From Escherichia coli (GTDB taxonomy: Bacteria; Pseudomonadota; Gammaproteobacteria; Enterobacterales; Enterobacteriaceae), in NCBI RefSeq assembly GCF_011045215.1, contig NZ_CP049201.1: a stretch of 64,000 nt of DNA; one strand, given 5' to 3'. The notes under the pieces are model-generated. The model was given only the letters and a program-made list of their open reading frames with translations, was not told the origin of the DNA and did no database searches. The position numbers and the translations under genes were made by a program. Shown here in pieces: positions 13,353 through 42,184 of this stretch (positions are counted from its first letter, which is position 1; every line of letters starts with the position of its first letter).

Positions 13353-13571
13353 CTATTTACGATAGTATCTTCGCATTTGTAGATAGAGTTGTAACCAAAT
13401 CCCAGCACCTCCCCATAAGCCAACTACTGCGCCAATTATTCCGTATTTTACATACACCTCAGAAGGTATTGGTTCCCGAGCTATAAACCAGATACTAACC
13501 ACTATTCCAATAGAGCAAGTAGCTATAGATATAAGTAACAACTTAATAAGAAGTAGTAGATGTTTTTTCAT
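13353..13571 (-). CDS. cdiI: CdiI immunity protein (72 aa, two TM helices)
   Basis: Start overlaps the cdiA stop (ATGA at 13568-13571); hydrophobic two-helix protein. Confidence 0.7.
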   Translation of the reverse strand: MKKHLLLLIKLLLISIATCSIGIVVSIWFIAREPIPSEVYVKYGIIGAVVGLWGGAGIWLQLYLQMRRYYRK

Positions 13572-16500
13572 TTTTTGTCTCCATCAACTTCTTTTTGCGT
13601 TGCGCTGCTTGCACCTTCTGATACGAATGAACCAACAAATCCACCAAATGTTCCTGGTATAGAACTCATTTGGCCGCCTTGATACATACCGTATCCGATA
13701 GACTTTTCCGAATATTGCAGTGAATATTTACTGGCGTCCATTCCCAGTTGATTTTTGATGTATTGAGCTTCTAACTTATTAGTAATTGAAGCGCCAATGT
13801 TATAGCCAAGGCCTGTACCAGCCATGCTACCCACTACTGATGCGGTACTGTCCTGGCCTTCAATCTGGCTGCTCATGTAAGCGCTACCGGCACCCAACAA
13901 CTGGTTAGCGTAATATCCTTTCCCGGCTGTACCTACACCAGTCAAGCCTGACATCATGAAACTGAGATAATCGAACTTATCACCGATATTTCCCGTACCA
14001 ATTTGTACCGCACCATTAGCCCCATAGCTCAGCCCGGCACTAACAAATTTTTCCGTCAGCGTGGCTGATGACGTTAACAACGAACCCGCTCCGGCAACCG
14101 TACCCCAGTAATTTTCCGGTTCCCCGAAGAAAGCCAGAGCCCTGTCACCCTTCGACGTATTACTGTTCAGATAATTCAGGTCGTAGCTGTTGCCTTCAGC
14201 CACGTAATCCTTCACCTCCTGATTAGTCAGTGAACCATACAGCCAGCTAGGTCGGCCCGCCGCGCTGAGCCCGCCCTCAATATTCCATTTATCTTCCCCG
14301 GACAGAGCCGTCAGAGGATCTGCGGCCACATCAATGTGTAATTTCTGTCGGTTCTCTGCGCTTAATACAGCATATTTATTCTGAATATCGCCGCAGTCTC
14401 CACCCGCTTTACGACAGGCCGTCATTTCTCTGTCAAAAGCATGCGCCTCGTCGTAGCTGAGGTAGTTATTCTCAACTGTTGTCTTACCTGACTGTGCGCC
14501 GGCTACCGCTGAAGCCCCCGAGTCGCCCACCAGACCACCGGCCAGGCCGGCAGCAACCGTTGCCAGCGTGGAGACCGTCTGTTTCTCTGTCTCACTCAGT
14601 TCACTCACCGGTTTATCGTACATCTGTGTGGCTATCATTCCCACCACCTCGCCGGTGGCTGCACCTGCAGCACCGGCAAGAGCATTATTTCCCTGTGCCA
14701 GAGACAGTGCGGCATTCACCACGGCATGGGCGGCCACATTTGCAGCCTTATTCACCTCACCTGTAACCGGGTCTGTGGTCATGGTTTTCACCACTTCAGC
14801 CAGATACGGTGCTGCACCACCTGCCAGGGCTGCACTCAGATTACCGCCGGCCAGCCCCTGTACTGCTGCCGTTGCGGCCTGTATCGCCTGCTGGTATTTG
14901 CCTCCCGTTCCAAAACCGGAGGCCGCCATACCGTTATTGTAAGCCCGCTGTGCCACATCCTGTTCCGTGAACGGTTTTCCTGCTGCCTCAAGCTCTGCAC
15001 GGGCCTGATTCAGTGCTGCCGGGTCCCGTTTCGCTTTCTCACCGGCTATCTGTCCTTCCGTTCTGGCAATATCTGCCACCTGGTTACCAATCTCACCAAT
15101 GAGTTGCGCCTGCTGCAACCGCTGCTGCTCTTTTTCCCTGTCAAAGATGGGGGACAGCGTCTGGTTTGCATGCGCAACGTCACGGTTCAGGTCTGCCACA
15201 TCCTGTTTCTGGCTCTGTGTATCCCGGATAGTGATATTCCCGGCAGACACAGCCGACTGCGTGGTACTGTCCGCATGGCCTTCATGATTTGCACCGACCA
15301 GCAGATTGTTTGCCATGTTCCCCAGGAAATTTCCGGCAACACTGCCACCGGTACTGAGCCCTGCACTCTGATGTTCCGTTTTAAAGTCAGCCCGGTTTTC
15401 AGTGTCACTGAAGCCCAGTGTGCCGGTATCCAGCCTGTTTTTATCTGCCGTTGCCGTGGACGCAATCACCGCACCGTTCAGTTGTGTATGCTGTCCGGTC
15501 GTGACATCAAACCCGCCCCTGCCGGCAAAAATCCCTGTCTGCTCCTGCACACTGTCGTGGTTACTGTGCATTTTATCCCGGCTGAGGCTCACACTCGCCG
15601 AACCGCTCATGGACCCGAAAGTGAAGCTGCCTCCGGCGCTGGCATTCTGCTGTTTACTGTCATAATGGTCACTGTCCTGCTCACTGGTCAGTGTCAGATG
15701 GCGACCGGCATCCACTTTCACGGTTTCTCCACTGGCCTGCGCCCCGGTAAGTGTGGTGTCACGCCCACTGATAATGGTCAGCTGTTTTCCCGCATCCACC
15801 GTGGTTTCTGTATGGGTGGTACCGTTGCCTTTTTCACTGCCCTTACCCTGGTTTGCGCTGGCTGACAGACTGAAACCAGGCCCTCCGGGCCCCACACCGA
15901 TACCGACACCCACGCTGCCACCACTGGATGTGTTCTTTCCTTCCAGCTTTGACGTGTTTTCTGCTGATACCAGATTCACGTCACGGTTTGCCTGCAGCAG
16001 AACGTTGTTCCCGGCCTTTATCTGACCGCCCTGTATCGTCAGGTCACCATCCACGCCCTTCACGCCGGAGCCGGTGGCCTGAATACTGAGGTTATTACCT
16101 GCGGTCAGTGTACTGCCCTTCGCCACCGTCTGCTCTGACTGCTGTTCTGATTTCGAAGACTGGCTGCCGTAAGAGAGGCTGATACCCACGGTATTGTTAT
16201 TCTCTTTCTGGTTGCCCTGTGCTTCTGCCAGTCGTCCGGCCTGCACGGCCTGAGCCCCCGAGAGCGCGGCCTTCACCCCCTGCAGGGCTTCAAGCCGGCT
16301 GTTTCCGGCAGATTTCGCCGCCTGTACGGTCTCCACCGTCGTGTTCAGGGCGCTGCCCGCTGTGCCGGACAGGGCAAGCGTCAGACCGGAGGTTTTCTGC
16401 TCCACCGTATGTGTCTGCACATGCCGGTCAGTGGCGGCGGTAATGCTGACCTCCTTACCACTGAGTGCCATGTCCCTGCCGGCAATCAGGTCAGAGCCGT

Positions 16501-19500
16501 TGACGGTCAACCGGTTACCTGCCTGAAGGGAAACATCACCGTGAACACTCCCCACCGTGCTGCCTTTCTGCGTGGTGTCTGTTGCGGTGTCCGTGACCTT
16601 CAGACTCTGGCTGCCCACGCTGAATCCCACACCTCCGGAGCTCATCAGTCCGGATTTTTTCTCCTGTTTCAGGTGTGTTTCACGGTTGCTTTCTGTCAGC
16701 GTTCCGATACTCAGGTTATTTCCGGCAGCCAGGGAGACACGGTTATCCCCGGCCACACTGCTGCCCGTGACGTTCAGATTATGTCCGGCACCGATACTGA
16801 CCGTATCCCCGTTCAGTTCACTGCCCGTCATGGTCCGGCGGTCAGTGACATCATGCGTGGTAGTGGTGGTTTTCGATAACATCCCGCTGTTGCCGGTCAC
16901 TTTATGGTATTCATCCAGCGAGCGGGTATTCTGTGCACCGGTCAGCGTCACGTCATGACCCGCCATCAGGGCCAGGCCTTTCTGAGCTGACAGCAATGCC
17001 GCCTGTGACGTCATATCCCGTCCGGCGGTCAGCGTGACATCACCGTTACCGGCAAGCGTGCTGCCCGTACTCTGTGTGACGCCCTGCGACAGACGATTAT
17101 TTTTATCCCAGATAATATTGTCCTGCGCGGATGTGGTCACTGTGGAGAATGTCATATCCCTGCCGGCACTGAGTTGCGTCAGACTGTCCTTACCCTGGTT
17201 CACCACCGTTGCTGCCGTCAGGTTTATGTCCCGTCCGGCCTGCAGCACCAGTCTGCCCTGGTCATTCTGCACATATACGCCAGCCACACTGTCGATGCTG
17301 GTACGTTCAAAATGGTTCTGTCCGGCGTCACTCTGTGCCGTACGGGTGGTGGTGGTCAGACTGATATCCCGTCCGGCCATCGCCAGCAGGCTGTCCGTGG
17401 CCTGCAGCAGCCCGCCGGTACTGTTAATATCCGTCCGGGCCGTCAGGCTGACATTTGCTCCCTGAATGGTGCCGGCCTGGTTGTGAATGTTTTCTGCACT
17501 GAGCTGCACGGCCTGCTTCCCGGCCAGTTTACCGCTGTTAAACAGGTCACCATCCAGCTTCATCACCATGTCCCTGCCGGCAATCAGCGCACCGGCACTG
17601 TTCACATCACCGGGTTTTACACGGGCATACACCTGAGGTACCTGAACCGTCTGCGTGCTGCCGTCCGGCAGTGTCACCGTGGTGTTAACCAGCCAGACAA
17701 TATCACCGGTCAGTAACGCCATCTGCTCAGCAGTCAGCGCCACACCTGGTGTCAGGTTGTATTGCTTACCAAATGCAATACCCGCATCCATTAACGCCTT
17801 AAACTGCTCTTCATCATTACTGTATCCGTCCAGGTACCGTTGCCCGGTCAGAGCGACAACCTGCTCACGAATCAGACGCTGTTCGTAAAAACCATCCCCC
17901 AGGCGTTTGAGCATGTTATCCCCGTTCTGAGAAAACGCCTTCTGCATGTAATCACTGCCCAGCCACGTCTTCTGGTTCGTAAAACGCGGGTCCGTTTCAA
18001 CCAGATATGGCACATTCACTGCCGGATTTGTTTTAAACAGGCTGCTGTCCGGCAGACGGGTATCCGGCCCGGCAACATGGATACTGCCCTGAGGTGCGCT
18101 GACTTCAAACTGCTGCCCCGGCAACAGAATGACCGGTTCACCGGCTGACACCACCGGGCGAAGCGGTATCCGGTCAGTAACGGCTACTGTCGCATCCACA
18201 TTTCCGGTCAGTCCTGTCTGTACATCCGTTCCCTGTGGCTTCAGGGGAGAAAGCGTGACCTGGCTGCCCTGAACCTGTCCGTGGCTGGTGAGCTCTCCCG
18301 GCTTCAGCGTGATGGTCTGAATGACGGGGGGCGGCTCGTAAGGGGAAATTCTTTCCCCCTGCCTGTCATTTTTATTTTTTCTTTTTATCCGGTAATAATA
18401 TGTGGATGTCCCTTTATCAGTAACATGGCGCTCTCCGCTGACACTGACGTTTTCCACATCACCGGCCTGCATATCCAGCAGACCACCTGCAACCACCTGG
18501 CTCTTGTCATTAAGCAGTTTGTCTGCCACAACCGTCATGCCGGCACCGGACAGTATTTTCCCCGGGTCGGAGTCTTTTACCCGGGTTTCCTCCACGGTAC
18601 GGGTGTATTCATATTTTGTGAACCGGTCGTTGTTATGTCCGGTATCATCCGGCGTGTTCAGGTTCAGCAGTCCATCAGAGGAGTTGTTATCAATGAACAC
18701 CCCCTCATCTTTTGCATTCCAGCGGACATCTGACCCGCGATGCTGATACTCAGTCACCTTTTCCGTGGAAACCACCACGCGCTCCGTGGTGAAATGGTCA
18801 TTGACGTTATTGATTTGTCCGGCACTCAGTACCAGATATCCGGCGGCTTCAATAGTGGCACTGTGATTATTCAGTACACCGGTTTTACCTGTGGCGGTGC
18901 CATTCGCATCCAGCGTGCCACCGATATGCATATCACCTGCACTGTAAATCAGGCTGTGCGTCCGGTTATTCAGGGTCTGTACCCCCAAGTCCACACGCTC
19001 ACGCCCGGCCAGCGTCGCCGCCACGCCATTTTCTTCCAGATTATTAAATGTGGCAGCACTGACACCAACAGCATCGCCGTAGATTCGCCCGGTACCGGAA
19101 TTCGTCAGGGTGTTCGCCTGAAGATGCGTATATTTCCCGTCAATCAGCCCACGGTTCAGCAGTGTGTCCGTCACGTTAAGCCAGGTCTGCCCGGCACTGA
19201 TTTCACCTTTCCCGGTGTTTTCAAGGCGGATGCTGTTCAGGTCAAGTCGGCTGCCTGCCAGCAGGCTGCCGGTATTAGAGACATCGCCATTAACGGAAAG
19301 CGTAAGGTTTCCGTTCGCAATAGTCTGACCACTGTTACTGAACGCTGTGTTACTTTTCAGCGTTATATCGCCCGGGGAAAGCAGTTTCCCGTCACCACCG
19401 AGCTGACCGGCATCCACAGAGACTGACTGCCCGGCCTTAACCACACCGTCACGGTTCGAAAACGCCAGCTGACGGCCACTGACAGACAATGTCGCGCCGG

Positions 19501-22500
19501 AAGAGAGCACGCCATCATTATTACTGAGCGTCCTGTCTGCCATAACCGTAAGCGCCCTGTCTGCCAGAATACTGCCCTCCTGGTTATCAAGGTCCTGCGT
19601 CGTGATGTGTATTGTCTGCGCTTCCAGCCCCTGGCCGGTATTCTGCGTGTGGCGATTGATAAACTGCAGGGCGTTCAGCGTAATGGCAGAACCACTGCGA
19701 ATCAGACCAGAGACGTTGTCCACAACGCCCCGTACACTGTCGAACAGAATGTCGCCCACAGACTGTATCTGTCCGTGGCTGTTCTGCAGGCCTCCCGTAT
19801 GCAGACGGAGTTCACCTTCACTGACCAGCCGGCCACCCTCACGGTTATCCAGCGAGGTGGTGCTCAGGTCAGCTGTCGTTTTCGCCCCCACGGTCCCGCC
19901 CCGGTTATCCATTGCTCCGGTACTGACAGTCAGTTCCTGCAGGCTGTTCAGCGTACCCCCTCTGTTATCCAGCGTCCGGCCTGCGCTATTAATGCTGATG
20001 CCTTTCCCCTGAATAAGACCGGACTGATTGTTCAGCGCCAGACTGTTCCGGCCGGGCAGACCGGTCGCCACAATCTGACCATTCGCCACCACCTGACCGG
20101 ATGTATTGTTAACCACGCCTGCAGTCAGGGACAGCGCATCTCCCGACAAAAGCACACCGGCAGTGCTGTCCAGTGTGCCGGCATTCAGCGTCATCGGGCC
20201 CTGACTGATAACCCCGCCCCGGTCACCACTGTTACGGTTGCTCAGTGTGTCAGCACGGAGATTCAGTGTGGCACCGCTCTGTATCAGACCACCTGCATCA
20301 TTGCTGATATCCGTCGAGGAAAGGGTCAGTGACTGCTGTGCCACCAGTCTGCCGCCCTGATTATCAGAGCGGGTGACATCCAGCCTGCTGTTACCGTTGC
20401 TGACCACCGTCCCCTGCTGATTTTCCAGCACATTCAGGTGCGCATTCAGGTCCCCGCCGGCGGCAAGCGTCCCTTCCTGATTACTGACATCGCCACCACT
20501 CAGCAACATATCCGTCCCGGCCTTCAGTGCGCCTTTCTGGTTCATCAGCGTACCTGACGATATCTGTAATGACGCCTGACTCCCCAGCACGCCCTGACGG
20601 TTATCGAGCGTTCCGGCGTTCAGGGTCATATCCTTCTGACCCGCCATAAATCCCTGCTGGTTATTCAGCATACCGGCCCGTACTGTCAGGGTACCGGCGC
20701 TGCTGATACCACCCCGTGTTTTCGTGTTCCGGTTACTGAGAACCCCGTCCTGTACATCCAGCGTCATGTCACTGCCGGACTGAATCAGACCATCATCAGA
20801 GACCAGTTCGCTGCCTGACACAGACAGCGTTTTCTGTGAAAGCAGTCTGCCGGACGTATTATCCAGCGCACCATCCAGCGTCACGGACAGCCCGTCAGAC
20901 ACCACCGTACCCTGGTGGTTATTCAGACTCCCTGCCGAAATATCCAGCCTGCCGGCGGACTCCATTCGTCCCTCAGTATTGCTGACAGCCTGCTGTGTTT
21001 TTATCCTGCCCGTTCCGGCAGCAGCTGAAATCAGTCCGTTGTCGTTATTCAGTGCCTGTGTATTAATCAGGATGTCACGGCTGGCAATCAGACTTCCCTG
21101 CTGGTTATCCACGGCGCCGGTTGTCCTCACCTGCAGACTACCTGACTGCGCCGCCTGCACTTTCCCCCTGCGATTATCAAGGCTCAGTGCATCCAGGCGC
21201 ACCGCGCCATTTGCCGCAAGCAGCCCTTCCCGGTTATCCACGCTTCCCGGCAGACTCAGCGAAAAATCCCCTGTTCCCGTCTGAATCAGACTGCCTTTAC
21301 GATTTGACAGGCTCTGTGCCGATATCTGCAGTGTGTCGGCATTTACCGTGCCACCATTATTGCTGAACTGCCCGGCAGTCCGGGCGGAAAGCGTACCGGC
21401 ACTCAGTTGTGCATTCTGTGTGGACAGATTTCCGCTGCCTGCATCCAGCTCAGTATGTTGTCCCTGTATCCGGCTGTTGCTTAAATCCAGCCCCTGCCCC
21501 TTCAGTTGCATGTCCCCACCGGACAGAACCTGTCCGTGTGCCGCCAGTTCGCCGGTGGTACTGACAGTCAGGTTGCCCGCTGCCGCCAGACGTCCGTCAT
21601 CTTTCACCCCGGCGGCCAGCAGACTCCGCTCACCGCCGGTCAGACGCGCTGTCTGAATCCGGGTGTTGCGGCGTGATGCCACAGAGCCTGTATGGGTGAA
21701 TGCACCATCACTCTGTATCTGCGTATCCTGCCCCGCATAAACAGAACCACTGTTATGCAGCTCCCGGGTTGTCGCCAGATGCACATCCGTTTTCGCACTG
21801 ATACTGCCACTGTTTTCAATACGTCCGTCAGCCGTCAGGGTAACCGCCCCTGCCTGCGCACCAATATGACCGGCGTTACGAACCCCCACCCCCGTTTCCG
21901 TACCGACAAGGCGAATTTTTCCGGCATACATTCCACCAAGGCTGGACACATCCAGCGCCACCTGTGGCTGCGAAGAGGCATCAGCGGCTTTTTTCTCAGT
22001 CTGCCCGTGTGCAATATCCACATTGTTACGTCCGGTGGTCACTTTCAGGTCCTGCGCCCAGATACCCGCATTAATCTTCACAGACCGGGCAATGATATCG
22101 GTATAATCCGTGCGCGAGGCATCCATCCCTTTGCCCGTAATCTGAATCTCACCACGTTCAACACTGAATCCGGTCAGACTGCCGTTTTTCATCTGAGGCT
22201 GCCCCGTGGTCAGCGTGGCCCGGTTCGCATTAATAAAACCGCACCCGTCGCAACTGATGCCGGCCGGGTTCGCAATCACCACCTGCGCCTTTTTCCCGGC
22301 AACCTCAACAAAACCGTTCAACTGGCTGGGATTGCGACTGTTCACTTCATTAAGAATGATTCGGGCCTCTCCCTTCGCCAGCCACGGGTTACCGGCAACC
22401 ATGCCGCCCAGTTGGGTCTGCACATTTTTATGCGAGTTATTCAGAATGACACCCTGATGACTGACATCAAACTGACTGTAAGTATTGTGCGATACCCCAC

Positions 22501-22804
22501 CTGCAGAAGGTGTCTGGATATTGACCTGAGGAATGCCGCTGGCTGTCTGCGTAATCGTGGGCTGCTGATGCCCCGGTGCGCCATGGTCTGCGACAATGCC
22601 TGCAGCACTGACAGAATGCACCATCCCCGAGGCCAGCCACAGGGAGAATGCAAGCGATGTGACACGGCAGATACGTTGCCTGCGTGGATATCCTGTACGG
22701 GAGGAGGGTGATGCACCGGCGCGACCGGAACGGGCAATATCTGCCACCACCATCAGCATTCCCCGGGCTTTGTTAAAAATAATGCGGTAACAATTTTTGT
22801 TCAT
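13568..22804 (-). CDS. cdiA: CdiA contact-dependent inhibition toxin / TpsA exoprotein (3078 aa)
   Basis: Extended signal peptide MNKNCYRIIFNKARGMLMVVADIARS, TPS domain, long filamentous-haemagglutinin repeat region, VENN motif at 14465-14476 followed by a 298-aa Gly-rich C-terminal toxin domain. Confidence 0.95.
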   Translation of the reverse strand: MNKNCYRIIFNKARGMLMVVADIARSGRAGASPSSRTGYPRRQRICRVTSLAFSLWLASGMVHSVSAAGIVADHGAPGHQQPTITQTASGIPQVNIQTPSAGGVSHNTYSQFDVSHQGVILNNSHKNVQTQLGGMVAGNPWLAKGEARIILNEVNSRNPSQLNGFVEVAGKKAQVVIANPAGISCDGCGFINANRATLTTGQPQMKNGSLTGFSVERGEIQITGKGMDASRTDYTDIIARSVKINAGIWAQDLKVTTGRNNVDIAHGQTEKKAADASSQPQVALDVSSLGGMYAGKIRLVGTETGVGVRNAGHIGAQAGAVTLTADGRIENSGSISAKTDVHLATTRELHNSGSVYAGQDTQIQSDGAFTHTGSVASRRNTRIQTARLTGGERSLLAAGVKDDGRLAAAGNLTVSTTGELAAHGQVLSGGDMQLKGQGLDLSNSRIQGQHTELDAGSGNLSTQNAQLSAGTLSARTAGQFSNNGGTVNADTLQISAQSLSNRKGSLIQTGTGDFSLSLPGSVDNREGLLAANGAVRLDALSLDNRRGKVQAAQSGSLQVRTTGAVDNQQGSLIASRDILINTQALNNDNGLISAAAGTGRIKTQQAVSNTEGRMESAGRLDISAGSLNNHQGTVVSDGLSVTLDGALDNTSGRLLSQKTLSVSGSELVSDDGLIQSGSDMTLDVQDGVLSNRNTKTRGGISSAGTLTVRAGMLNNQQGFMAGQKDMTLNAGTLDNRQGVLGSQASLQISSGTLMNQKGALKAGTDMLLSGGDVSNQEGTLAAGGDLNAHLNVLENQQGTVVSNGNSRLDVTRSDNQGGRLVAQQSLTLSSTDISNDAGGLIQSGATLNLRADTLSNRNSGDRGGVISQGPMTLNAGTLDSTAGVLLSGDALSLTAGVVNNTSGQVVANGQIVATGLPGRNSLALNNQSGLIQGKGISINSAGRTLDNRGGTLNSLQELTVSTGAMDNRGGTVGAKTTADLSTTSLDNREGGRLVSEGELRLHTGGLQNSHGQIQSVGDILFDSVRGVVDNVSGLIRSGSAITLNALQFINRHTQNTGQGLEAQTIHITTQDLDNQEGSILADRALTVMADRTLSNNDGVLSSGATLSVSGRQLAFSNRDGVVKAGQSVSVDAGQLGGDGKLLSPGDITLKSNTAFSNSGQTIANGNLTLSVNGDVSNTGSLLAGSRLDLNSIRLENTGKGEISAGQTWLNVTDTLLNRGLIDGKYTHLQANTLTNSGTGRIYGDAVGVSAATFNNLEENGVAATLAGRERVDLGVQTLNNRTHSLIYSAGDMHIGGTLDANGTATGKTGVLNNHSATIEAAGYLVLSAGQINNVNDHFTTERVVVSTEKVTEYQHRGSDVRWNAKDEGVFIDNNSSDGLLNLNTPDDTGHNNDRFTKYEYTRTVEETRVKDSDPGKILSGAGMTVVADKLLNDKSQVVAGGLLDMQAGDVENVSVSGERHVTDKGTSTYYYRIKRKNKNDRQGERISPYEPPPVIQTITLKPGELTSHGQVQGSQVTLSPLKPQGTDVQTGLTGNVDATVAVTDRIPLRPVVSAGEPVILLPGQQFEVSAPQGSIHVAGPDTRLPDSSLFKTNPAVNVPYLVETDPRFTNQKTWLGSDYMQKAFSQNGDNMLKRLGDGFYEQRLIREQVVALTGQRYLDGYSNDEEQFKALMDAGIAFGKQYNLTPGVALTAEQMALLTGDIVWLVNTTVTLPDGSTQTVQVPQVYARVKPGDVNSAGALIAGRDMVMKLDGDLFNSGKLAGKQAVQLSAENIHNQAGTIQGANVSLTARTDINSTGGLLQATDSLLAMAGRDISLTTTTRTAQSDAGQNHFERTSIDSVAGVYVQNDQGRLVLQAGRDINLTAATVVNQGKDSLTQLSAGRDMTFSTVTTSAQDNIIWDKNNRLSQGVTQSTGSTLAGNGDVTLTAGRDMTSQAALLSAQKGLALMAGHDVTLTGAQNTRSLDEYHKVTGNSGMLSKTTTTTHDVTDRRTMTGSELNGDTVSIGAGHNLNVTGSSVAGDNRVSLAAGNNLSIGTLTESNRETHLKQEKKSGLMSSGGVGFSVGSQSLKVTDTATDTTQKGSTVGSVHGDVSLQAGNRLTVNGSDLIAGRDMALSGKEVSITAATDRHVQTHTVEQKTSGLTLALSGTAGSALNTTVETVQAAKSAGNSRLEALQGVKAALSGAQAVQAGRLAEAQGNQKENNNTVGISLSYGSQSSKSEQQSEQTVAKGSTLTAGNNLSIQATGSGVKGVDGDLTIQGGQIKAGNNVLLQANRDVNLVSAENTSKLEGKNTSSGGSVGVGIGVGPGGPGFSLSASANQGKGSEKGNGTTHTETTVDAGKQLTIISGRDTTLTGAQASGETVKVDAGRHLTLTSEQDSDHYDSKQQNASAGGSFTFGSMSGSASVSLSRDKMHSNHDSVQEQTGIFAGRGGFDVTTGQHTQLNGAVIASTATADKNRLDTGTLGFSDTENRADFKTEHQSAGLSTGGSVAGNFLGNMANNLLVGANHEGHADSTTQSAVSAGNITIRDTQSQKQDVADLNRDVAHANQTLSPIFDREKEQQRLQQAQLIGEIGNQVADIARTEGQIAGEKAKRDPAALNQARAELEAAGKPFTEQDVAQRAYNNGMAASGFGTGGKYQQAIQAATAAVQGLAGGNLSAALAGGAAPYLAEVVKTMTTDPVTGEVNKAANVAAHAVVNAALSLAQGNNALAGAAGAATGEVVGMIATQMYDKPVSELSETEKQTVSTLATVAAGLAGGLVGDSGASAVAGAQSGKTTVENNYLSYDEAHAFDREMTACRKAGGDCGDIQNKYAVLSAENRQKLHIDVAADPLTALSGEDKWNIEGGLSAAGRPSWLYGSLTNQEVKDYVAEGNSYDLNYLNSNTSKGDRALAFFGEPENYWGTVAGAGSLLTSSATLTEKFVSAGLSYGANGAVQIGTGNIGDKFDYLSFMMSGLTGVGTAGKGYYANQLLGAGSAYMSSQIEGQDSTASVVGSMAGTGLGYNIGASITNKLEAQYIKNQLGMDASKYSLQYSEKSIGYGMYQGGQMSSIPGTFGGFVGSFVSEGASSATQKEVDGDKK

Positions 22805-22819
22805 TCTGATAAACCTGAC

Positions 22820-23347
22820 TTATCTCTCCGGCACATCCACAGCAAGCGGGTGCTGCACACGCCACTGGCGCGCCTCTTCACGACTGACCTGTGCACCCCG
22901 GAAATTCATCACCCGCAACCCGGTCTGCTGCCCACGGTGGTACAGCGAACGCCAGCACAGACGGGGAAAAATATCCTGCCGGACAAGACGACTCATATCC
23001 GGGGTATGTCCAAAAGGGGCAATCCAGTCACAGACCCACATCCGGTCGCCGCTGTTCCAGTCCGACTGAGGCATGAGAATTGCCGGCTGCGTAAGATAAC
23101 GCGCCTCTGCCTCCGGGCTGAGCCAGGCCTGGCTCATGAAGAAAACCGGTCGCCCCTGCTCTGTTGCCACCACATACTGTCGGTGCTTAATCACCGGCAG
23201 CAGCAGGTCCGGCAGGGTATGCAGTGGCGCATCACGATGCAGGGGGGAGTGCATCCACAACCAGACGGCCGCCCCCAGAACTTCCGCCTCATTGACCGGC
23301 TCACCGGAATACAGGGGACTCAGAACGTCATATTTCCCGTTACGCAT
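22820..23347 (-). CDS. cdiC: CdiC, HlyC-family toxin-activating lysine acyltransferase
   Basis: 175 aa; VWLWMHSPLHR and SGDRMWVCDWIAPFGH match HlyC/CyaC acyltransferase motifs; sits between cdiB and cdiA. Confidence 0.85.
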   Translation of the reverse strand: MRNGKYDVLSPLYSGEPVNEAEVLGAAVWLWMHSPLHRDAPLHTLPDLLLPVIKHRQYVVATEQGRPVFFMSQAWLSPEAEARYLTQPAILMPQSDWNSGDRMWVCDWIAPFGHTPDMSRLVRQDIFPRLCWRSLYHRGQQTGLRVMNFRGAQVSREEARQWRVQHPLAVDVPER

Positions 23348-23356
23348 GAAATTTTC

Positions 23357-25096
23357 TCAGAAATCCCGGAACAGATTAAAACCGGCTGTCACATCACTCG
23401 TCATAAAACCCGCCGGTTTTGAAAACGGACGACCGATGAAAACGTCATAATCCGTACTGAACAGTTGCCCCCTCAGCCCCACAACACCACCGGCCAGATG
23501 ACGTCCCACCAGGTATTCACTGCCGGCTCCCCCCACCTCGCCGTAATCCATTCCCAGATATAACGCCTGCTCCGGCAGTGGCGTACGCCAGGCCAGGTCG
23601 TTGCGGATATACCAGCCGTTACTGGCATTCAGCGTTCGCTCCCCGTCAAAACCACGAACCGTCCAGCGGTTACCGATGGCAAACTGTTCCTGTGGGGTCA
23701 GCGGGGTATTGCTCAGCTGGCGCTGATACCGGAAGGAATAACTGAAGGGCTGCCCTGCAAGGGTAAAGGGCAGATTAAAGGATGCATTCAACTGCAGGAT
23801 CTTACTGAGCGCCGTTGCCTCACCGAACGTTTCTTCCGGCGCCGGCTGTGCACCAAACCAGCGGGTTCCCCGTTGCCAGCTGACACCAGCATCCAGTGTG
23901 GCCTGAGAAATATAATGACGGTGCTGCAGCCCAAGTCGCCAGGCCGCTGTCTGCCGGCGCTGCACCTGGATTTCCGTATCATTAATGTAGTTACGCGACC
24001 TGCGGGCCTGAACATCGTAGGTCAGCACCGTTTTCTGCGTCCCGTTACGGTGCAGTACCCGGCTCAGCTGCATACCCAGATTCTGACTCTCGCCACTGTA
24101 CTGGTAATCCTCAACCGCACCAGCTACCGTCTGATGGTAATCGTAATCACTGGCGGTGACGGAAAACTGCCAGTAGCCGAAAGGCACAGAGTAATGGGCC
24201 GTGTAGTTTTTACTGCCCTTACCCCCGTAATGTGGAAAATTACGGGTGGCAGAAACATACAGCAGGTCACTCAGGGAAAAAGGATTATCCAGAGAAAATG
24301 TTATACCACCGAGATAACGCCCTGTGCTGCGGGTACCTGAATCATCAAGCGAAAACCCCAGTCGCCAGTATTTGTCCTGTTTGCGGGTAATAAGAATGTC
24401 ACTTTCCCCTGGCTGCTCACCGGGTACAATTTCCATATCAGCCTGCACACCCGGCAGTCGTTGCATATTCTCCAGCCCCTGCTCAATGTCCCGTAAATCC
24501 AGCAGAGAACCTTCGTGTGCCGGGAATGAGGAATACAACTGAATATAGTCATCACTGTCCGGTGTCAGACGCACATGTCGCACAACACCGGGAATAACAA
24601 CCAGCCGGAGGATACCGCTTTTTAAATCCTGCGAAGGTGCCAGAACACGGGTGGTGACATAACCATGATCGACCAGACGGTTCTGCAATGTACTCATCAG
24701 CAGATTAATTCCTTTCGCCCCCAGGCAATGCCCGACCGCCCCGTTGGCGATTTTTTGTAAAGGCAGCCAGTGTGGTAACGCATCAGCCCCCTCCAGTTCC
24801 GTCTGTTTAATCTGAAAACAGGGCGTTTCAACAGGAAAATTAATCTTACGGGCAAAAGAGCCAGGTGCAGAAAGGCGAACATCAGGGGCTGAAGGCGTCA
24901 GTTGTTGCTCAAGGGCTTCCTGACGCTGCTGCTGAATGATAAATGCATTATCTCCGCTACGCCGGACATCCGCGGCCTGAAGAGATAAAGGCGATAATAA
25001 AACAGACATCAGTGTCAGTGACAGCAAGGACGGACAGCGCCGGAATACGCTTTGTTCCTCAGCCCTCTCGTTCCTGCAACATAATTTTCCAGTCAA
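23357..25096 (-). CDS. cdiB: CdiB, TpsB/ShlB-family outer-membrane transporter
   Basis: 579 aa, signal peptide, POTRA plus beta-barrel, C-terminal aromatic residue; 9 bp upstream of cdiC. Confidence 0.9.
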
Positions 25097-36671: not shown

Positions 36672-37412
36672 TCACCTGCCATCCAGCAAACGCCCCGGCC
36701 CACGACTGCAACCATAATTACGTTGCCCGGAACCGTCATGCTGCTTCGTCTCATATTTCACGAGATAACTGGCTCTGTTCCGAGCTTTCTGCATCGCTTC
36801 CACATCACCACGCTTGATCCAGAGAACAGCGGCTTCACCAGACTTTTTGTCTGAAGCCTTCCTGGTTTCAGAACATTCACCAGGCACAGGCGTATCATCG
36901 GAAGAAGGGCGAGCATCAGATGATGTCGGTTTACGGAAAGGCGTTGACAGCGTCCGCCTGGAAAAATGAACCAGTCCATTACCCTGCCAAGGCTCAAGAT
37001 GCAGAGCACTGCACCATGCCAGTTGGATCAGCGTCGCCAGCGAAGAAGGAACGGTGAAATCCCCTGGCGAGCACCAGGTATCTTTGTTGAGCAGTAATAT
37101 CACGTGATAATGTTTCCTGCCTTTTTCCTTGCCAAACTCCCGACACCAGAAATAACGCAGAGTGGTTGCGCGCACACGCTTGTTGGCACGTCGTTTTTTC
37201 CGCTGGTAAGCCTGAATTTTTGCTTTCAGGGATTCGAAAAAACGAGAAATCACCGCTGAATCTAAATCGGTATCCATGATGGTGGCAGGCATATACTCAG
37301 GAAAACGTAAATCCACCCGAATTAACGAGACGGCACGGTGTTGCGCCAGGGCACTGTTGAGAATGCTTTCAAAACGGGATAACCAGTAAGCATTGTGTAT
37401 TGGTTGATTCAT
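36672..37412 (-). CDS. Inovirus Gp2-like / YfjJ-YagK family protein, third paralogue
   Basis: 246 aa; SLIRVDLRFPEY and HYHVILLLNKD (HUH-like). Confidence 0.45.
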   Translation of the reverse strand: MNQPIHNAYWLSRFESILNSALAQHRAVSLIRVDLRFPEYMPATIMDTDLDSAVISRFFESLKAKIQAYQRKKRRANKRVRATTLRYFWCREFGKEKGRKHYHVILLLNKDTWCSPGDFTVPSSLATLIQLAWCSALHLEPWQGNGLVHFSRRTLSTPFRKPTSSDARPSSDDTPVPGECSETRKASDKKSGEAAVLWIKRGDVEAMQKARNRASYLVKYETKQHDGSGQRNYGCSRGPGRLLDGR

Positions 37413-38289
37413 GATGAGAGATCTCCGTTGATTTGGATTGACTTCACATCATTAATCACTGTGGTAAAACTTTACGGCATCCCGCCATTGAGCAACGCCA
37501 ATGGCTCCTGATTAAAACAGAATGAATCCCCCACGAAGAAAAGATAAACCTACACGCAGAGTGAAACACACAACAACGGCATAAATGGTTTTTAAAAACT
37601 ACAAAGCCTGAAGGGAAACGGATCAACAAAACGTGCAAACAAAACGTCAGAAACGCAATCAGAACGCTTTCTGGCTCTGTAAATCAACAACAACACCAAA
37701 ACCTACAGCTTAACCACACAACTCAATCACAGAGCCGAATAGCGCGCTTAAAACCTGTTTACAGATAACCCCGCCACAAGAACAAAAACCACCAATATCA
37801 GAATCGATTTTCTTATCCTGAAAACGTTACTTTTCAACACACCATAAAAACGATTAACCATCAATAACGTAAATCTCATCTGAATCAAAACACCAGAACC
37901 AATCATCACGCTTTTCCTGAAAAGAGCCTTATGATGAAGATAATCACCTTGCGCTGAGAAAAAACACCAGGGCCAGTTAATCATCTCATCAATCTCATTG
38001 CTACAAAATCATCTATAAAACCATTTAACAAAATCATCGTAAGCACACAGTAAATCACGCCAGGTTATCTCAGCCGGATTTGCGTTTTACATAAAAACAC
38101 TTGTCTCAGGTTAACGACTAAAAACACGAAAACTCATAAAAGGTTAAATGTAACATCAGTAAAATCGAATAGCATATTGACTGCTTAAACAGGACAGGGA
38201 GTTTTGTAGTGACGTTAACTGATTTTAGTTAGCGTAAAGATTTACTAAACTGGATGTGTTTCAGACAAAGCAATGTGTATAACAATGCT

Positions 38290-38415
38290 TAATGAAAACA
38301 CTTGTAGAATTGTTTATGAAAACACGTGCATGTCTGGTAAAACACTTAGTAGAAAATACGTGTATAACACTTACTGAAATGCTTAGTAAAAATACTGAGT
38401 AAAATACGTGTATAT
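38290..38415. repeat. Degenerate direct-repeat (iteron-like) array
   Basis: Five or more copies of GAAAA(C/T)AC(T/G)T(G/A)(T/C)A spaced about 15-25 bp apart (38294, 38317, 38337, 38352, 38400) in an ORF-free AT-rich region. Confidence 0.4.
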
Positions 38416-39378
38416 AGTATCATACCGACATTCTCAACATCTTCAGACATCCATGCAGACTGAGTGTTGATTTCAGTTTTTCACGGCCAGCATGGATCTT
38501 TACTGGTCAAAAAACAGACAGATTTACTCTGGAATTATTTTTCCAGGCCTCCCTGAAAAGACCATCCGGAGCACCCCGTTCGTCAGCTTCCATGTTGTCT
38601 TTTACCCCCGGAAAGTGATCGCATTTTCCAGCCAGAATGACAGCCATACTGATTATGACGTCTCTCCGGCCCCTTCACATATAACATTCATGTCAGTCAT
38701 TTCTACTGTCTCACTCACCGAAATTCTCCATGCCGGATGAAGCAATTGTTCTGAACTGAGCAGAAGCATAACAGCACACACAAGGAAACGACTGTGCCAT
38801 AGATCCCGGAATCAGGATCTTAATGTCAGGAAAACAGTGACGACCGGGGATAACTAACAACAACCTGAGTACAGAAGAAAGCTTTCCCGCGCACGCCACC
38901 ATCTTATGTAAGAGGATATGATGCCCCCACCTCAGAAGAACCGTCTCCGGGAGAACTTCACTGCATCAAAAATCCTTTTGCTGAGTTCTCATTCCCCATC
39001 ATGGCAGCTACAGACATGCCCTGACAGAGCGTATGCGCATTGAGAGAAATAACCATAAATGATGAGAAGACACTCTATATGACGACAGCATGTTGAGGTA
39101 TAAAAAATATTCATCTAAATATTTTAAGAATATTTTTTATTGCAAATTACATGAAATAACATGATGTCAATATAATTTTGTCAAATGCGTGAGATTAATC
39201 ACATTGTAATTTTATGTATTTTTATGTAAATAAGAGAAAATGATCCATGAGCGTTATTGCATTTTTTCTGATGTATGGATAAAAGGGGGATTCAGGCAAA
39301 ATTTACTGACAGAGGAGATGATAAGAGGGGGTTAAAGAGTTCTATAGAGTTGGTTGTGCATTTATACCCAGGGAGTTC

Positions 39379-40233
39379 ATGTCTGTGCATTCACCAGATG
39401 AATCTGCTCATGTTTTTAGTAGGATGGAATATGAATATCACCGACATAACGATAAATTACGTTCTGTTAATGCTGATAATGCAGGCAGAGACGTTGTTCC
39501 GGAGTGGGTGCAAAAAGACCCTGTAGCCGCATTCTGGGTATGGATGTTTATATATCATGTTCCTGACAGTATTGTCCGACTCTCAGGTGAGCGATATGCA
39601 GATTACGGAACTTCCTGTCTGTATTCCAGACTGTTCGCTGCTGAAGCACTTCCGGTTGAGCATCAGGCAAGGATTAGTGTGACGAGAAAATGGCTACAGG
39701 AACTTAAAAGGCTAACCGGAACAGAAAATGTATCTGACTTCTTGTATGCCGTTCATTTTTTATGGTCATATGCTGAAAAAGTGAACCCCATGACATGGCT
39801 TGGTTCCCGGCGGATACATATCAAATGGGCATGGGCGTATCTGCAGAAACATTGCACTGACGAAGAACGTCACTGTCCTGATATTTCAGAATTTAAAGCT
39901 TCAGGGGAGTCCCGTCTGTTCATAATAGCTTATGTGCGCTGTGTCTTCATGAAAATCTATTCTGTCGGTACTGAACCTCAAAAGTTAAAAGAATTAGTTC
40001 ATCAGCAGAATGATTTTCTCAGGCGCATGAAGTGCTCATACCAGAAAATGTTCCGGTATGAGAAAACCGATTCCCGGGTACAGATAAGTGCCCTGATTTC
40101 TCCGGAAGCCAGGAATGCACTCCGGAAAATGGCAAAAAAGAATAATCTGACTCAGGCTGAAATACTGGATAAACTCATCTTATCAGCTGATCGTCTGTTT
40201 ATGCAGAAAACAACCGGGGATTATTCCCGTTAA
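39379..40233 (+). CDS. hypothetical protein (284 aa) with a possible C-terminal ribbon-helix-helix-like segment
   Basis: ORF only; C-terminal EARNALRKMAKKNNLTQAEILDKLI. Confidence 0.4.
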   Translation: MSVHSPDESAHVFSRMEYEYHRHNDKLRSVNADNAGRDVVPEWVQKDPVAAFWVWMFIYHVPDSIVRLSGERYADYGTSCLYSRLFAAEALPVEHQARISVTRKWLQELKRLTGTENVSDFLYAVHFLWSYAEKVNPMTWLGSRRIHIKWAWAYLQKHCTDEERHCPDISEFKASGESRLFIIAYVRCVFMKIYSVGTEPQKLKELVHQQNDFLRRMKCSYQKMFRYEKTDSRVQISALISPEARNALRKMAKKNNLTQAEILDKLILSADRLFMQKTTGDYSR

Positions 40234-41237
40234 TGAGTTCCACCAGAACCGTTTTTCTTTTTGCTGCTGTTTTTGCGTTTATGCTGTTCGTACCTTTCTT
40301 TTGACGTACAAAGGAATCTTCCATAAACATTGCGGATATATGAGTTGATACACTCCAGCATTCTCTCTTTTCGTGATTTCCCTTTTTCCTTCGAATCTTC
40401 ACTTTGAACATTAATGTTCATCAGTTCTTTTATAAACTTATCCAGATTTTCCATGTCATAAAGCAGCATGAAAAACATCACATTTCCCAGTGATTCCAGT
40501 AACTGAGATTCAACCCTGTACCCATATTTTCTGAAACTTAGCCCTGTTAAAAACTGTTCAAACATTACCCCTGATTCAAAAAGAGATTTTAATCCCAGTC
40601 GCTTATATTCCAGGTAAAAAAGTTCAAACGTCGGGGATGCTGAACGGCAAATAAACGAAGACAGCGCCCATGGATCAAAATATGTAACACGCTTCCCCTC
40701 CCGCACTTCCTGCGGTGTCAGCGGCGGTTCAGCAAACCAGGCGTCCAGCTCAGCCGAATCGCTGTCCCTGCTCAAAACCTCATACAAACTGCCCGTGAAC
40801 GGTTGAGGCGGATTTTTGGTTGCTTCATCTTCTGATTGTCTGGATTGTCTGAATCCGTCCACTTTTCTCCGGATATTACGCGGGATCAGCATAAAAGGCG
40901 GGACATTAAGTGATAAATGTTTACCCGTCATGCGATACCATTGCCCCACCTCAACCTTAATCCGTGTATCTGGCCTTAGCTCAAGTGCTATTATGTTAAG
41001 CAGGTACAGATAACGCACCGTATAACAGTCAAAATGTTTCTCCGGATCAAACGGCTCTGACCCTTCTCTGCACACGAGTCCTCTGCGCTTCAGTATTCGC
41101 TGGGTATCTTTCCAGGCCTTACTCTGAAGAATGGTGGTAACTCTGGCCTTATTAACAATATCACGCAGTGCATCACCTTGTTGTGCCGTCATCCAACACC
41201 TCCCGCACTCTGTCACTCCAGATTTTTTCACGCCCAT
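40230..41237 (-). CDS. hypothetical protein (335 aa)
   Basis: ORF convergent with 39379-40233, 3' ends overlap by 4 bp; lysine-rich C-terminus. Confidence 0.4.
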   Translation of the reverse strand: MGVKKSGVTECGRCWMTAQQGDALRDIVNKARVTTILQSKAWKDTQRILKRRGLVCREGSEPFDPEKHFDCYTVRYLYLLNIIALELRPDTRIKVEVGQWYRMTGKHLSLNVPPFMLIPRNIRRKVDGFRQSRQSEDEATKNPPQPFTGSLYEVLSRDSDSAELDAWFAEPPLTPQEVREGKRVTYFDPWALSSFICRSASPTFELFYLEYKRLGLKSLFESGVMFEQFLTGLSFRKYGYRVESQLLESLGNVMFFMLLYDMENLDKFIKELMNINVQSEDSKEKGKSRKERMLECINSYIRNVYGRFLCTSKERYEQHKRKNSSKKKNGSGGTH

Positions 41238-41299
41238 ATTACCTGAATGATAAGCCGGATTAGTGTGATCCGGTTAGGTAAAATCAACAGGATACCGGT

Positions 41300-42184
41300 A
41301 TGTTATTCAGCCATTCTTCCCTCTCCGCGCAAGTGAAATCACATCTGACGTTTCTTCCTGAAGAAATTCGCCAGAAAATCCTTGAACATCTCCACAGCGT
41401 TATTCATTACGAGCCCGTGATTGGCATTATGGGTAAATCCGGCACAGGCAAAAGCAGTCTGTGTAATGCCATTTTTCAGTCCCGTATCTGCGCCACGCAT
41501 CCCCTGAACGGCTGCACCCGCCAGGCTCATCGCCTCTCCCTGCAGATTGGTGAACGCAGAATGACGCTGGTCGATCTGCCCGGCATTGGTGAAACACCGC
41601 AGCATGATCAGGAATACCGGGAGCTTTACCGTCAGTTACTGCCGGAACTGGATCTGATTATCTGGATCCTGCGGGCTGATGAACGTGCGTATGCTGCCGA
41701 TATTGCCATGCATCAGTTTTTACTGAATGAAGGCGCAGATCCCTCGCGTTTTCTGTTTGTTCTCAGCCATGCCGATCGCGTATTTCCTGCTGAAGAATGG
41801 AACGACACAGAAAAATGCCCGTCCCGTCAGCAGGAACTCTCACTGGCAACAGTAACAGCCCGGGTGGTAACCCTGTTCCCTTCATCATTTCCGGTACTCT
41901 CCGTTGCCGCACCTGTCGGCTGGAACCTTCCGGCATTTGTGTCGCTGATGATCCACGCACTGCCACCACAGGCAACCAGCGCGGTGTATTCACATATCCG
42001 GGGGGAAAACCGCTCTGAACAGGCCCGGAAACACGCACAACAGACTTTTGGTGAAACCATCGGGAAAAGTTTTGACGACGCCGTTGCCCGTTTCAGTTTT
42101 CCGGCCTGGATGTTACAGCTTCTGCGCAAAACCCGGGACCGCATTATCCGCCTGCTGGTCACACTGTGGGATCACCTGTTCTGA
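41300..42184 (+). CDS. YfjP/YkfA/YeeP-family GTPase
   Basis: 294 aa; G1 motif GIMGKSGTGKSSL, DLPG switch motif. Confidence 0.75.
   Translation: MLFSHSSLSAQVKSHLTFLPEEIRQKILEHLHSVIHYEPVIGIMGKSGTGKSSLCNAIFQSRICATHPLNGCTRQAHRLSLQIGERRMTLVDLPGIGETPQHDQEYRELYRQLLPELDLIIWILRADERAYAADIAMHQFLLNEGADPSRFLFVLSHADRVFPAEEWNDTEKCPSRQQELSLATVTARVVTLFPSSFPVLSVAAPVGWNLPAFVSLMIHALPPQATSAVYSHIRGENRSEQARKHAQQTFGETIGKSFDDAVARFSFPAWMLQLLRKTRDRIIRLLVTLWDHLF

What the first reader, a model, noticed from the sequence alone, without database searches (positions are those of the whole stretch)
39379..41237. Convergent, 3'-overlapping pair of uncharacterised ORFs in an AT-rich island segment
A 284-aa ORF with a possible ribbon-helix-helix-like C-terminus and a 335-aa ORF converge and overlap by 4 bp, flanked by long ORF-free AT-rich DNA. 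Neither matched a family I recognise. Such isolated pairs in islands are often toxin-antitoxin or abortive-infection modules.
Basis: inference. Interest (0 to 1): 0.4.

Follow-up and report, generated by a model that had tools for sequence, protein, structure and literature searches.

The report
Conserved regulator-like gene pair in island
Two uncharacterised, tail-to-tail genes are a real, always-together component of a family of enterobacterial genomic islands; one encodes a probable DNA-binding repressor and the other a protein with no recognisable relatives, and they look more like the island's own control module than a toxin-antitoxin pair.

Summary
ORF A (39379-40233, +, 284 aa) and ORF B (40230-41237, -) converge and share a 4-bp TTAA stop overlap. 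B most likely starts at 41192 (320 aa). Long ORF-poor AT-rich DNA lies only on the A side.

Both are real genes (dN/dS 0.3-0.65). They were neighbours in all 14 distinct related loci examined (Escherichia, Citrobacter, Serratia, Lelliottia and others). In 5,426 complete E. coli genomes, A-like and B-like places number 819 and 820. The pair always sits between the AlpA/YagK-YfjJ (Rep-like) arm and the GTPase/DUF932/antirestriction/RadC/CbtA arm of CP4-type islands.

A ends in a CopB/CopG-like ribbon-helix-helix domain; the hits are weak but seen in 11 of 13 members. B has a confident AlphaFold model (pLDDT 82.5) with no match in PDB or BFVD and no family hit. A, its upstream repeats and the 3' third of B form a hypervariable allelic cassette inside a conserved backbone.

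Best reading (about 0.4): an island-specific regulatory or "immunity" module. A toxin-antitoxin, Abi or defence role is not supported by architecture or databases, but it is not excluded. In K-12 CP4-57 the same slot holds AbpAB and RnlAB.

The parts
39379..40233 (+). ORF A, 284 aa (pI 9.2): a novel Trp-rich N-terminal region of about 220 aa plus a C-terminal ribbon-helix-helix domain
   Evidence: dN/dS 0.28-0.53
40066..40188 (+). Region of A encoding the CopB/CopG-like RHH motif (aa ~230-270: RVQISALIS-PEARNALRKMAKKNN-LTQAEILDKLI)
   Evidence: NF010256 (IncFII RepA2/CopB type) hits 11/13 family members, best E 2e-4. RepC_IncLM hits 6/13. PF01402 RHH_1 hits 5/13 and PF10723 hits 4/13. hhalign against CopG gives probability 65%, E 6e-5, in register. 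All hits are below curated cut-offs.
40230..41192 (-). ORF B, 320 aa from the likely start (the maximal ORF reaches 41237): basic N-terminal alpha/beta region, acidic helical middle, basic C-terminal tail; no known family or fold
   Evidence: AF2 model pLDDT 82.5, pTM 0.81. No fold match.
40230..40233 (.). TTAA shared by the two stop codons (4-bp convergent overlap)
   Evidence: Conserved in the E. coli alleles and L011, but not in more distant relatives.
38700..40500 (.). Hypervariable allelic cassette: about 700 bp upstream of A, plus A, plus the 3' third of B. It is unalignable between island types, while the flanks are 85-99% identical. Boundaries are approximate.
   Evidence: sliding-window identity; B N-terminal part 71-89% aa identity against 34-39% for the C-terminal part
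39100..39140 (.). Perfect 13-nt inverted repeat ATAAAAAATATTC-N15-GAATATTTTTTAT, 240-280 bp upstream of A; candidate type-specific operator
   Evidence: Other A types carry different repeats at the equivalent place, for example 4 x 11-bp GAATAG repeats in L004/L008/L023. Binding is inferred, not shown.
39203..39230 (-). Best sigma-70-like match in the region (TTTACA-16-TACAAT, 10/12). It points leftward into the ORF-poor gap towards yagK. Possible divergent partner of the A promoter.
   Evidence: a consensus match only
41255..41273 (.). Palindrome CCGGAT-N7-ATCCGG in the 107-bp B/GTPase divergent intergenic region, next to a conserved GGTAATAT (-10-like) element for B
   Evidence: The palindrome is conserved in all E. 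coli types and replaced by different palindromes at the same place in L011 and L015.
38094..38410 (+). Iteron-like array of AAAAYACKTR (6 copies, all on one strand) in the conserved part of the yagK-A intergenic region
   Evidence: 7 matches in the window against 1.47 expected, 6 of them here. The array is present at the same place in L002-L009.
36672..37412 (-). Flanking YagK/YfjJ (inovirus Gp2 / Rep-like) gene, divergent from A
   Evidence: PF11726 E 7e-37, PF23343 E 2.7e-10
41300..42184 (+). Flanking YeeP/YkfA/YfjP-type GTPase gene, divergent from B; first gene of the DUF932/antirestriction/RadC/CbtA arm
   Evidence: PF01926 E 5e-15; synteny

Best explanation
A and B are a conserved, fast-evolving two-gene control module of a family of Enterobacterales integrative islands. 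The islands are CP4-57/CP4-44-like, with an AlpA + YagK/YfjJ Rep-like arm on one side and a GTPase-DUF932-antirestriction-RadC-CbtA/CbeA arm on the other.

A is a DNA-binding protein. A CopB/CopG-type ribbon-helix-helix domain is fused to the C-terminus of a novel domain of about 220 aa. A sits divergently from the yagK/alpA arm. It most likely represses its own promoter, and probably a leftward promoter, through type-specific repeats 150-280 bp upstream of its start. This is how CopB and CopG repress rep genes and how mobile-element repressors hold excision and replication genes silent.

B is a basic protein of unrecognised fold. It is transcribed from its own conserved promoter and palindrome, divergently from the GTPase arm. 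It acts with A: its C-terminal third is exchanged together with A and A's operator region as one allelic cassette, which resembles a phage immunity region or a plasmid incompatibility determinant.

Shown: gene reality, strict co-occurrence, synteny, mosaic cassette, RHH similarity, and no known fold for B. Inferred: DNA binding by A to the repeats, repression of the neighbouring arm, any A-B contact, and any role for B.
For: Co-occurrence and synteny. B homologues have a convergent A homologue next to them in all 14 distinct loci examined. All partners end in the same RHH motif. In complete E. coli genomes, A-like places number 202 + 617 = 819 and B-like places 820. A is always divergent from alpA or yagK. 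B is divergent from the GTPase or WYL arm in most loci.

RHH. PGAP names some alleles 'replication regulatory RepB family protein'.

Selection. dN/dS is 0.3-0.65 for A and B, against 0.18-0.29 for the neighbours.

Allelic cassette. It includes A's upstream region and B's 3' third.

Repeats. Type-specific direct or inverted repeats occur only upstream of A.

B promoter region. A conserved -10-like element and a positionally conserved palindrome lie upstream of B.

Other. Both proteins are basic. The family is absent from phages and nearly absent from plasmids; the annotated plasmid case (H83) carries B, A, the gap and yagK together.
Confidence: 0.4

Rival explanations
1. Toxin-antitoxin, abortive-infection or other anti-phage defence pair. 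A is an RHH-bearing antitoxin or sensor, and B is a toxin or effector of novel fold.
For: A carries a DNA-binding domain typical of type II antitoxins. In K-12 CP4-57 the slot between yfjJ and the GTPase gene yfjP carries the anti-phage abpAB and the rnlAB TA system. The genes are AT-rich, fast-evolving and allelic. The co-variation of A with B's C-terminal third would fit cognate neutralisation.
Against: The genes are convergent, with bidirectional terminator-like hairpins between them in some relatives (L017, L018), so they are not an operon. No PADLOC hit was found for any of the 21 B or 13 A family members. No enzymatic or toxin domain is present and B has no fold match. The pair has one fixed context in one bacterial order, with no presence in phages and only 2 of 72,556 plasmids. 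It has co-diverged with the island backbone instead of moving as a cassette.
Confidence: 0.2
2. Replication, transfer or segregation accessory proteins of the island. A acts as an RHH origin-binding, relaxosome or centromere-binding factor (like TraY, VirC2 or ParG) working with the Rep-like YagK/YfjJ at the iteron-like array. B is its partner.
For: A Rep/Gp2-like gene and an iteron-like array lie next to A, and similar repeat arrays lie upstream of yagK in L013 and L018. A's RHH is most similar to plasmid replication-control proteins. In L013 the pair abuts conjugation genes (TraG P-loop). When the island fragment was captured by a plasmid, the pair stayed linked to yagK.
Against: The iteron array lies in the conserved backbone and is shared by islands with unrelated A types and different RHH recognition strands, so it is unlikely to be A's site. 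No NTPase partner or relaxase motif is recognisable in B.
Confidence: 0.15
3. Two unrelated, independently acting island genes that are neighbours only by descent, or decaying remnants without function.
For: They are separate transcription units. Frameshifted, truncated or IS-disrupted copies exist.
Against: Adjacency is kept in 14 of 14 loci despite 22-36% protein identity and turnover of the other neighbours. dN/dS is below 1. Place counts in 5,426 genomes are equal.
Confidence: 0.07

Closest known systems
CopB (RepA2) of IncFII plasmids, RepC of IncL/M, and CopG of pMV158 (small RHH repressors of rep genes)
   Same: A's last ~60 aa align in register with these proteins: beta-strand, helix, an N-cap Thr (where classical RHH proteins have G-x-S/T/N; the Gly is absent in A), helix. 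As in those replicons, the gene lies beside a Rep-like gene and repeats.
   Different: A is 284 aa, with a novel Trp-rich domain of about 220 aa in front of the RHH. Scores are far below family cut-offs. The adjacent Rep-like protein is of the YagK/YfjJ (Gp2) type. The element is a chromosomal island, not a plasmid.
Immunity regions of temperate phages and master repressors of satellites and ICEs (lambda cI/operators, SaPI Stl, ICEBs1 ImmR)
   Same: A regulator gene sits divergent from the excision/replication genes. Regulator and operator are extremely allelic inside a conserved backbone. A large, fast-evolving non-DNA-binding domain is present. This is a comparison by analogy, from my own knowledge.
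   Different: The DNA-binding domain is an RHH at the C-terminus, not an N-terminal HTH. A second, convergent gene (B) is part of the variable cassette. No inducer or anti-repressor is known.
Type II toxin-antitoxin modules with RHH antitoxins (ParDE, CcdAB, HicAB with C-terminal RHH HicB)
   Same: Two adjacent genes on a mobile element, one with an RHH domain.
   Different: Convergent rather than operonic. Both products are about 300 aa. There is no recognisable toxin fold and no spread across contexts.
AbpAB and RnlAB of E. coli K-12 CP4-57
   Same: They occupy the same slot, between the YfjJ-family gene and the GTPase gene, of a related island.
   Different: No sequence or domain similarity. 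Those systems have helicase, RNase or other recognisable domains.

Membership tests
Ribbon-helix-helix (MetJ/Arc/CopG) DNA-binding superfamily (A, C-terminal domain) | Sequence profile match to RHH families | tested here: inconclusive
   PF01402 hits 5/13 members (best E 6.7e-4). PF10723 hits 4/13. NF010256 hits 11/13 (best E 2e-4). All are below curated cut-offs. hhalign against CopG gives probability 65%. Profile searches of PDB sequences find no RHH protein.
Ribbon-helix-helix (MetJ/Arc/CopG) DNA-binding superfamily (A, C-terminal domain) | Beta-strand with alternating polar/hydrophobic residues, helix 1, a G-x-S/T/N-type N-cap, then helix 2 | tested here: met
   RVQIsAlIS / VQINvKIS strand, then the conserved A/K..L..(M/L) helix, then an invariant T-Q (T258, Q259 in the E. 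coli set) starting helix 2, then ..L/I..LI. The Gly of the classical turn is replaced by N, K or D.
Ribbon-helix-helix (MetJ/Arc/CopG) DNA-binding superfamily (A, C-terminal domain) | Dimeric fold and DNA binding | not testable with these tools
CopB/RepA2 family proper (NF010256 / PF10723) | Whole-protein score above the curated cut-off; small (~85 aa) stand-alone repressor in a plasmid replicon | tested here: not met
   21 bits against a cut-off of 87. A is 284 aa and chromosomal. Only 1 plasmid in 72,556 carries an A homologue.
Type II toxin-antitoxin system | Co-directional, co-transcribed bicistronic operon | tested here: not met
   Convergent in all 14 loci. Terminator-like hairpins lie between the genes in some relatives (L017, L018).
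Type II toxin-antitoxin system | Recognisable toxin family or fold | tested here: not met
   No Pfam, NCBIfam, PHROG or PADLOC hit for B. No fold match.
Type II toxin-antitoxin system | Toxicity of one partner, neutralised by the other | not testable with these tools
   Requires expression experiments.
Known anti-phage defence systems (PADLOC-DB v2) | HMM match of any component | tested here: not met
   0 hits for 21 B-family and 13 A-family members.
GntR/FadR-type regulators (considered for B) | Winged-HTH plus helical effector domain, with a significant structural match | tested here: not met

The most novel reading that the evidence does not exclude
A-B is a previously unrecognised two-component system in which a protein of genuinely new fold (B) is the effector and an RHH-fused sensor (A) is its allele-specific partner. 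It would act either as a new anti-phage/abortive-infection system occupying the same island hotspot as AbpAB and RnlAB, or as an inter-island 'immunity/incompatibility' switch that lets several related islands coexist in one genome. It is present in about 14% of complete E. coli genomes.
Probability: 0.15. Interest if true: 0.65.

Novelty: new variant of a known kind. Interest (0 to 1): 0.35.

Why it matters
CP4-type islands are among the commonest mobile elements of E. coli and carry virulence, defence and toxin-antitoxin cargo. How they are kept silent or activated is poorly understood beyond AlpA. A strictly paired, hypervariable module sits exactly between the two arms of the island and occurs in 741 of 5,426 complete genomes, which makes it a concrete candidate for that control. 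One partner also appears to have a fold not represented in the PDB. If the pair turned out to be a defence or addiction system instead, it would be a new one with no similarity to catalogued systems.

Tried and rejected
- Pfam, NCBIfam, PHROGs and PADLOC on the two proteins and on all family members gave only sub-threshold RHH/CopB hits for A and nothing for B.
- PDB sequence searches with full-length and C-terminal profiles found nothing meaningful.
- The first AF2 run for B, with a shallow alignment, was unusable (pLDDT 47.5). A deeper alignment, built from an exhaustive HMMER search, fixed this.
- hhalign shows that A and B are not paralogues.
- Rfam searches of the region and of related loci found nothing.
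With the narrower one it yielded only one extra locus, in Hafnia.
- Literature searches by gene names, accession numbers and island keywords found no description of these genes.
- The idea that the 4-bp overlap, and mutual antisense through it, is central was dropped, because distant relatives separate the genes with terminator-like hairpins.
- The idea that A binds the iteron-like array was set aside, because the array is shared by islands with unrelated A types.
- A single conserved operator motif across all loci was not found.

Full report
**Observation**

The window has ORF A at 39379..40233 (+, 284 aa) and ORF B at 40230..41237 (-, 335 aa). Their stop codons share TTAA at 40230-40233. B's likely start is the ATG at 41192. 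It is preceded by GGAGG, is used by PGAP in the nearest relative, and is the start of all homologues. That gives 320 aa.

The segment is AT-rich. A is 42.9% GC, B 43.6% and the upstream gap 38.9%, against 50-59% for neighbouring genes. Long ORF-poor DNA (37413-39378) lies only on the A side. On the other side B is 107 bp from a GTPase gene.

**Context**

The surroundings are a CP4-type enterobacterial island:
- a YagK/YfjJ (inovirus Gp2/Rep-like) gene at 36672-37412 (-);
- the gap, then A and B;
- a YeeP/YkfA/YfjP-type GTPase gene (41300-42184);
- then DUF932, antirestriction, RadC and, in the annotated nearest relative, DUF987, CbeA/CbtA, DUF5983 and DUF4942.

The closest annotated genome is APEC strain BEN5202, at 98.8% identity. 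There A is named 'replication regulatory RepB family protein' and B 'hypothetical protein'.

**Are the genes real, and are they conserved together?**

Both families are small and essentially confined to Enterobacterales.
- A word-indexed search of 5.8 billion proteins found 8-14 clusters for A and 66 for B.
- An exhaustive HMMER search of 1.84 billion representatives with a B profile found only 48 proteins, about 17 of them full-length distant relatives at 22-30% identity.
- Named sources include Citrobacter, Serratia, Lelliottia, Enterobacter and Hafnia.

In every locus I could read, a B homologue is followed by a convergent ORF of about 256-320 aa (one copy is cut by a contig end). This holds for the E. 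coli types L002, L004, L008 and L009, the plasmid-captured fragment L023, and the distant loci L011, L013, L015-L019, L021 and L022. Each partner ends in the same beta-alpha-alpha motif. The E. coli type-2 partner is only 27% identical to A (E 4e-26).

Counts in 5,426 complete E. coli genomes:

| Query | Places | Genomes |
|---|---|---|
| A allele of this window | 202 | 195 |
| Type-2/3 A alleles | 617 | 561 |
| B family | 820 | 741 |

A-like places therefore total 819, against 820 for B.

dN/dS is 0.28-0.53 for A and 0.37-0.68 for B. The GTPase and YagK genes give 0.18-0.29. Both are therefore selected protein-coding genes that evolve faster than their neighbours. Against distant islands, A is 24-29% and B 32-36% identical, while the GTPase is 52-71%, DUF932 65-74% and RadC 49-56%.

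The family is absent from 50,697 phage records. It occurs in 2 of 72,556 plasmids. In the annotated case, B, A, the gap and yagK were captured together.

**What the proteins are**

*A.* No family reaches its curated threshold, but the C-terminal ~60 aa give consistent weak hits to RHH repressors:
- NF010256 (IncFII RepA2/CopB type) in 11 of 13 members, best E 2e-4;
- RepC_IncLM in 6 of 13;
- Pfam RHH_1 in 5 of 13 and RepB-RCR_reg in 4 of 13;

The motif RVQISALIS-PEARNALRKMAKKNN-LTQAEILDKLI has the expected strand, helix, N-cap Thr and helix pattern. The first ~220 aa form a Trp-rich region with no detectable relatives.

B's N-terminal 125 aa and C-terminal 55 aa are basic (pI about 10) and the middle is acidic. 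Invariant residues include W27, K110 (in the IRRK motif), Y137 (GSLY), E195 and F241. A and B are not paralogues.

**Anatomy that bears on mechanism**

1. *Orientation.* A is always divergent from the alpA/yagK arm. B is divergent from the GTPase (or WYL-regulator) arm in most loci. So two convergent genes sit back-to-back between the two arms of the island.

2. *Independent transcription units.* E. coli alleles and L011 have the 4-bp overlap and L016 a 26-bp overlap. Other relatives have gaps of roughly 15-120 bp. In L017 and L018 these gaps carry clear bidirectional terminator-like hairpins. The overlap itself is therefore not the conserved feature.

3. *A hypervariable cassette.* Sliding-window comparison of island types shows a backbone at 85-99% identity. 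This backbone covers yagK, the gap up to about 38600, the 5' two-thirds of B, and the GTPase gene. It is interrupted by an unalignable stretch from about 38700 to 40500: the ~700 bp upstream of A, A itself, and the 3' third of B. A further breakpoint lies inside A.

4. *Type-specific repeats upstream of A.*
   - This window has a perfect 13-nt inverted repeat at 39100-39140.
   - Type 2 has four 11-bp GAATAG repeats.
   - Type 3 has two such repeats.
   - L011 and L013 have inverted ATAGTT-type repeats.

   These motifs were found post hoc and are not universal.

5. *Elements upstream of B.* A GGTAATAT element and a palindrome (41255-41273, CCGGAT-N7-ATCCGG) are conserved in all E. coli types. 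Different palindromes occupy the same position in L011 and L015.

6. *An iteron-like array.* The conserved part of the gap holds six AAAAYACKTR copies on one strand at 38094-38410. The window has 7 matches against 1.47 expected. The array is shared by islands with unrelated A types. It is therefore probably the site of a conserved protein such as the Rep-like YagK, not of A.

**Interpretation**

The best-supported reading (about 0.4) is an island-specific control module. A is a CopB/CopG-like RHH repressor with a novel, rapidly diversifying N-terminal domain. It would autoregulate, and possibly control a leftward promoter towards yagK/alpA, through its type-specific repeats. B is a new-fold basic protein with its own conserved promoter and palindrome. 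It would work with A, since its C-terminal third is inherited with A as one allelic cassette. This resembles phage immunity regions, SaPI Stl or plasmid incompatibility determinants.

Only gene reality, co-occurrence, synteny, the cassette, the RHH similarity and the lack of a known fold are shown. DNA binding, the targets and any A-B contact are inferred.

Points against:
- the convergent, non-operonic layout;
- the size of both products;
- the lack of any toxin or defence-model hit;
- the single, co-diverging genomic context.

Points for:
- the RHH domain;
- the rapid allelic evolution;
- the slot itself. In K-12 CP4-57 the stretch between yfjJ and the GTPase gene yfjP carries abpAB and rnlAB. 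This also shows the pair is dispensable for an island of this type.

I give this reading about 0.2. A replication/transfer accessory role gets about 0.15. Neighbours without a joint function gets about 0.07.

**Novelty and interest**

Neither family is described in the searched literature. Under the best reading this is a new variant of a known kind: a mobile-element repressor/immunity module with an unusual architecture and a partner of unrecognised fold. It is not surprising enough to rank high, but it is a clean, testable candidate for how CP4-type islands are controlled. Interest 0.35.

Noticed in passing
window 38094-38410: Iteron-like array: six copies of AAAAYACKTR on one strand at roughly 14-48 bp spacing, in the conserved part of the yagK-A intergenic gap. 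It is present at the same place in related E. coli islands whatever their A type. It may be an origin or binding array for the Rep-like YagK/YfjJ protein.
   Followed up: partly
L011:7968-8046, L016:2207-2285, L021:11998-12075, L022:12457-12545, L015:8669-8760: In distant relatives the ~80 nt before alpA form a conserved leader with two predicted hairpins. The second pairs CTCCCG with the alpA Shine-Dalgarno CGGGAG, and L022 has the compensatory CTCCTG/CAGGAG. There is no Rfam family and the element is not present in this window. It may provide translational control of alpA.
   Followed up: partly
L024 (E. coli K-12 NC_000913.3 2761351-2767355): In CP4-57 the slot between yfjJ and the GTPase gene yfjP holds abpB-abpA, yfjM and rnlA-rnlB instead of the A-B pair. 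The same position is therefore a cargo or defence hotspot in a sister island.
   Followed up: yes
window 40230-41192 (B), breakpoint near 40500-40600: A recombination breakpoint lies inside B. The N-terminal ~195 aa are 71-89% identical between island types, while the C-terminal ~125 aa are only 34-39% identical. A second breakpoint lies inside A: window and L002 share both ends of A but not codons ~45-205.
   Followed up: yes
L013:1-5341: In one metagenomic relative the pair abuts ICE-type conjugation genes (TraG P-loop PF19044 and four large unannotated ORFs) instead of the GTPase arm. This hints that CP4-type islands derive from, or exchange modules with, a conjugative element.
   Followed up: partly
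window 41255-41273: Palindrome CCGGAT-N7-ATCCGG between the divergent B and GTPase genes. It is conserved in E. coli and replaced by other palindromes at the same position in L011 and L015. It is a candidate operator for an unknown regulator.
   Followed up: partly
window 40234-40275 and 40190-40229: Immediately after each stop codon the transcript would form a short 4-bp hairpin followed by a T-run. The T-run after A's stop is the antisense of B's Lys-rich tail codons. These may be weak terminators embedded in the partner's coding sequence.
   Followed up: partly
window 13568-25096: A 3078-aa ORF (13568-22804, -) is followed by 175-aa and 579-aa ORFs on the same strand, in a GC-rich (55-59%) block. 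This is a very large gene cluster elsewhere in the window and was not examined.
   Followed up: no
L009:1-176 and L001:1819-2253: Relatives of this island carry a TIR-domain protein gene next to the Gp2-family gene, and an H-NS paralogue. The literature describes these as features of ROD21-like (EARL) islands, which suggests mosaicism between island families.
   Followed up: no
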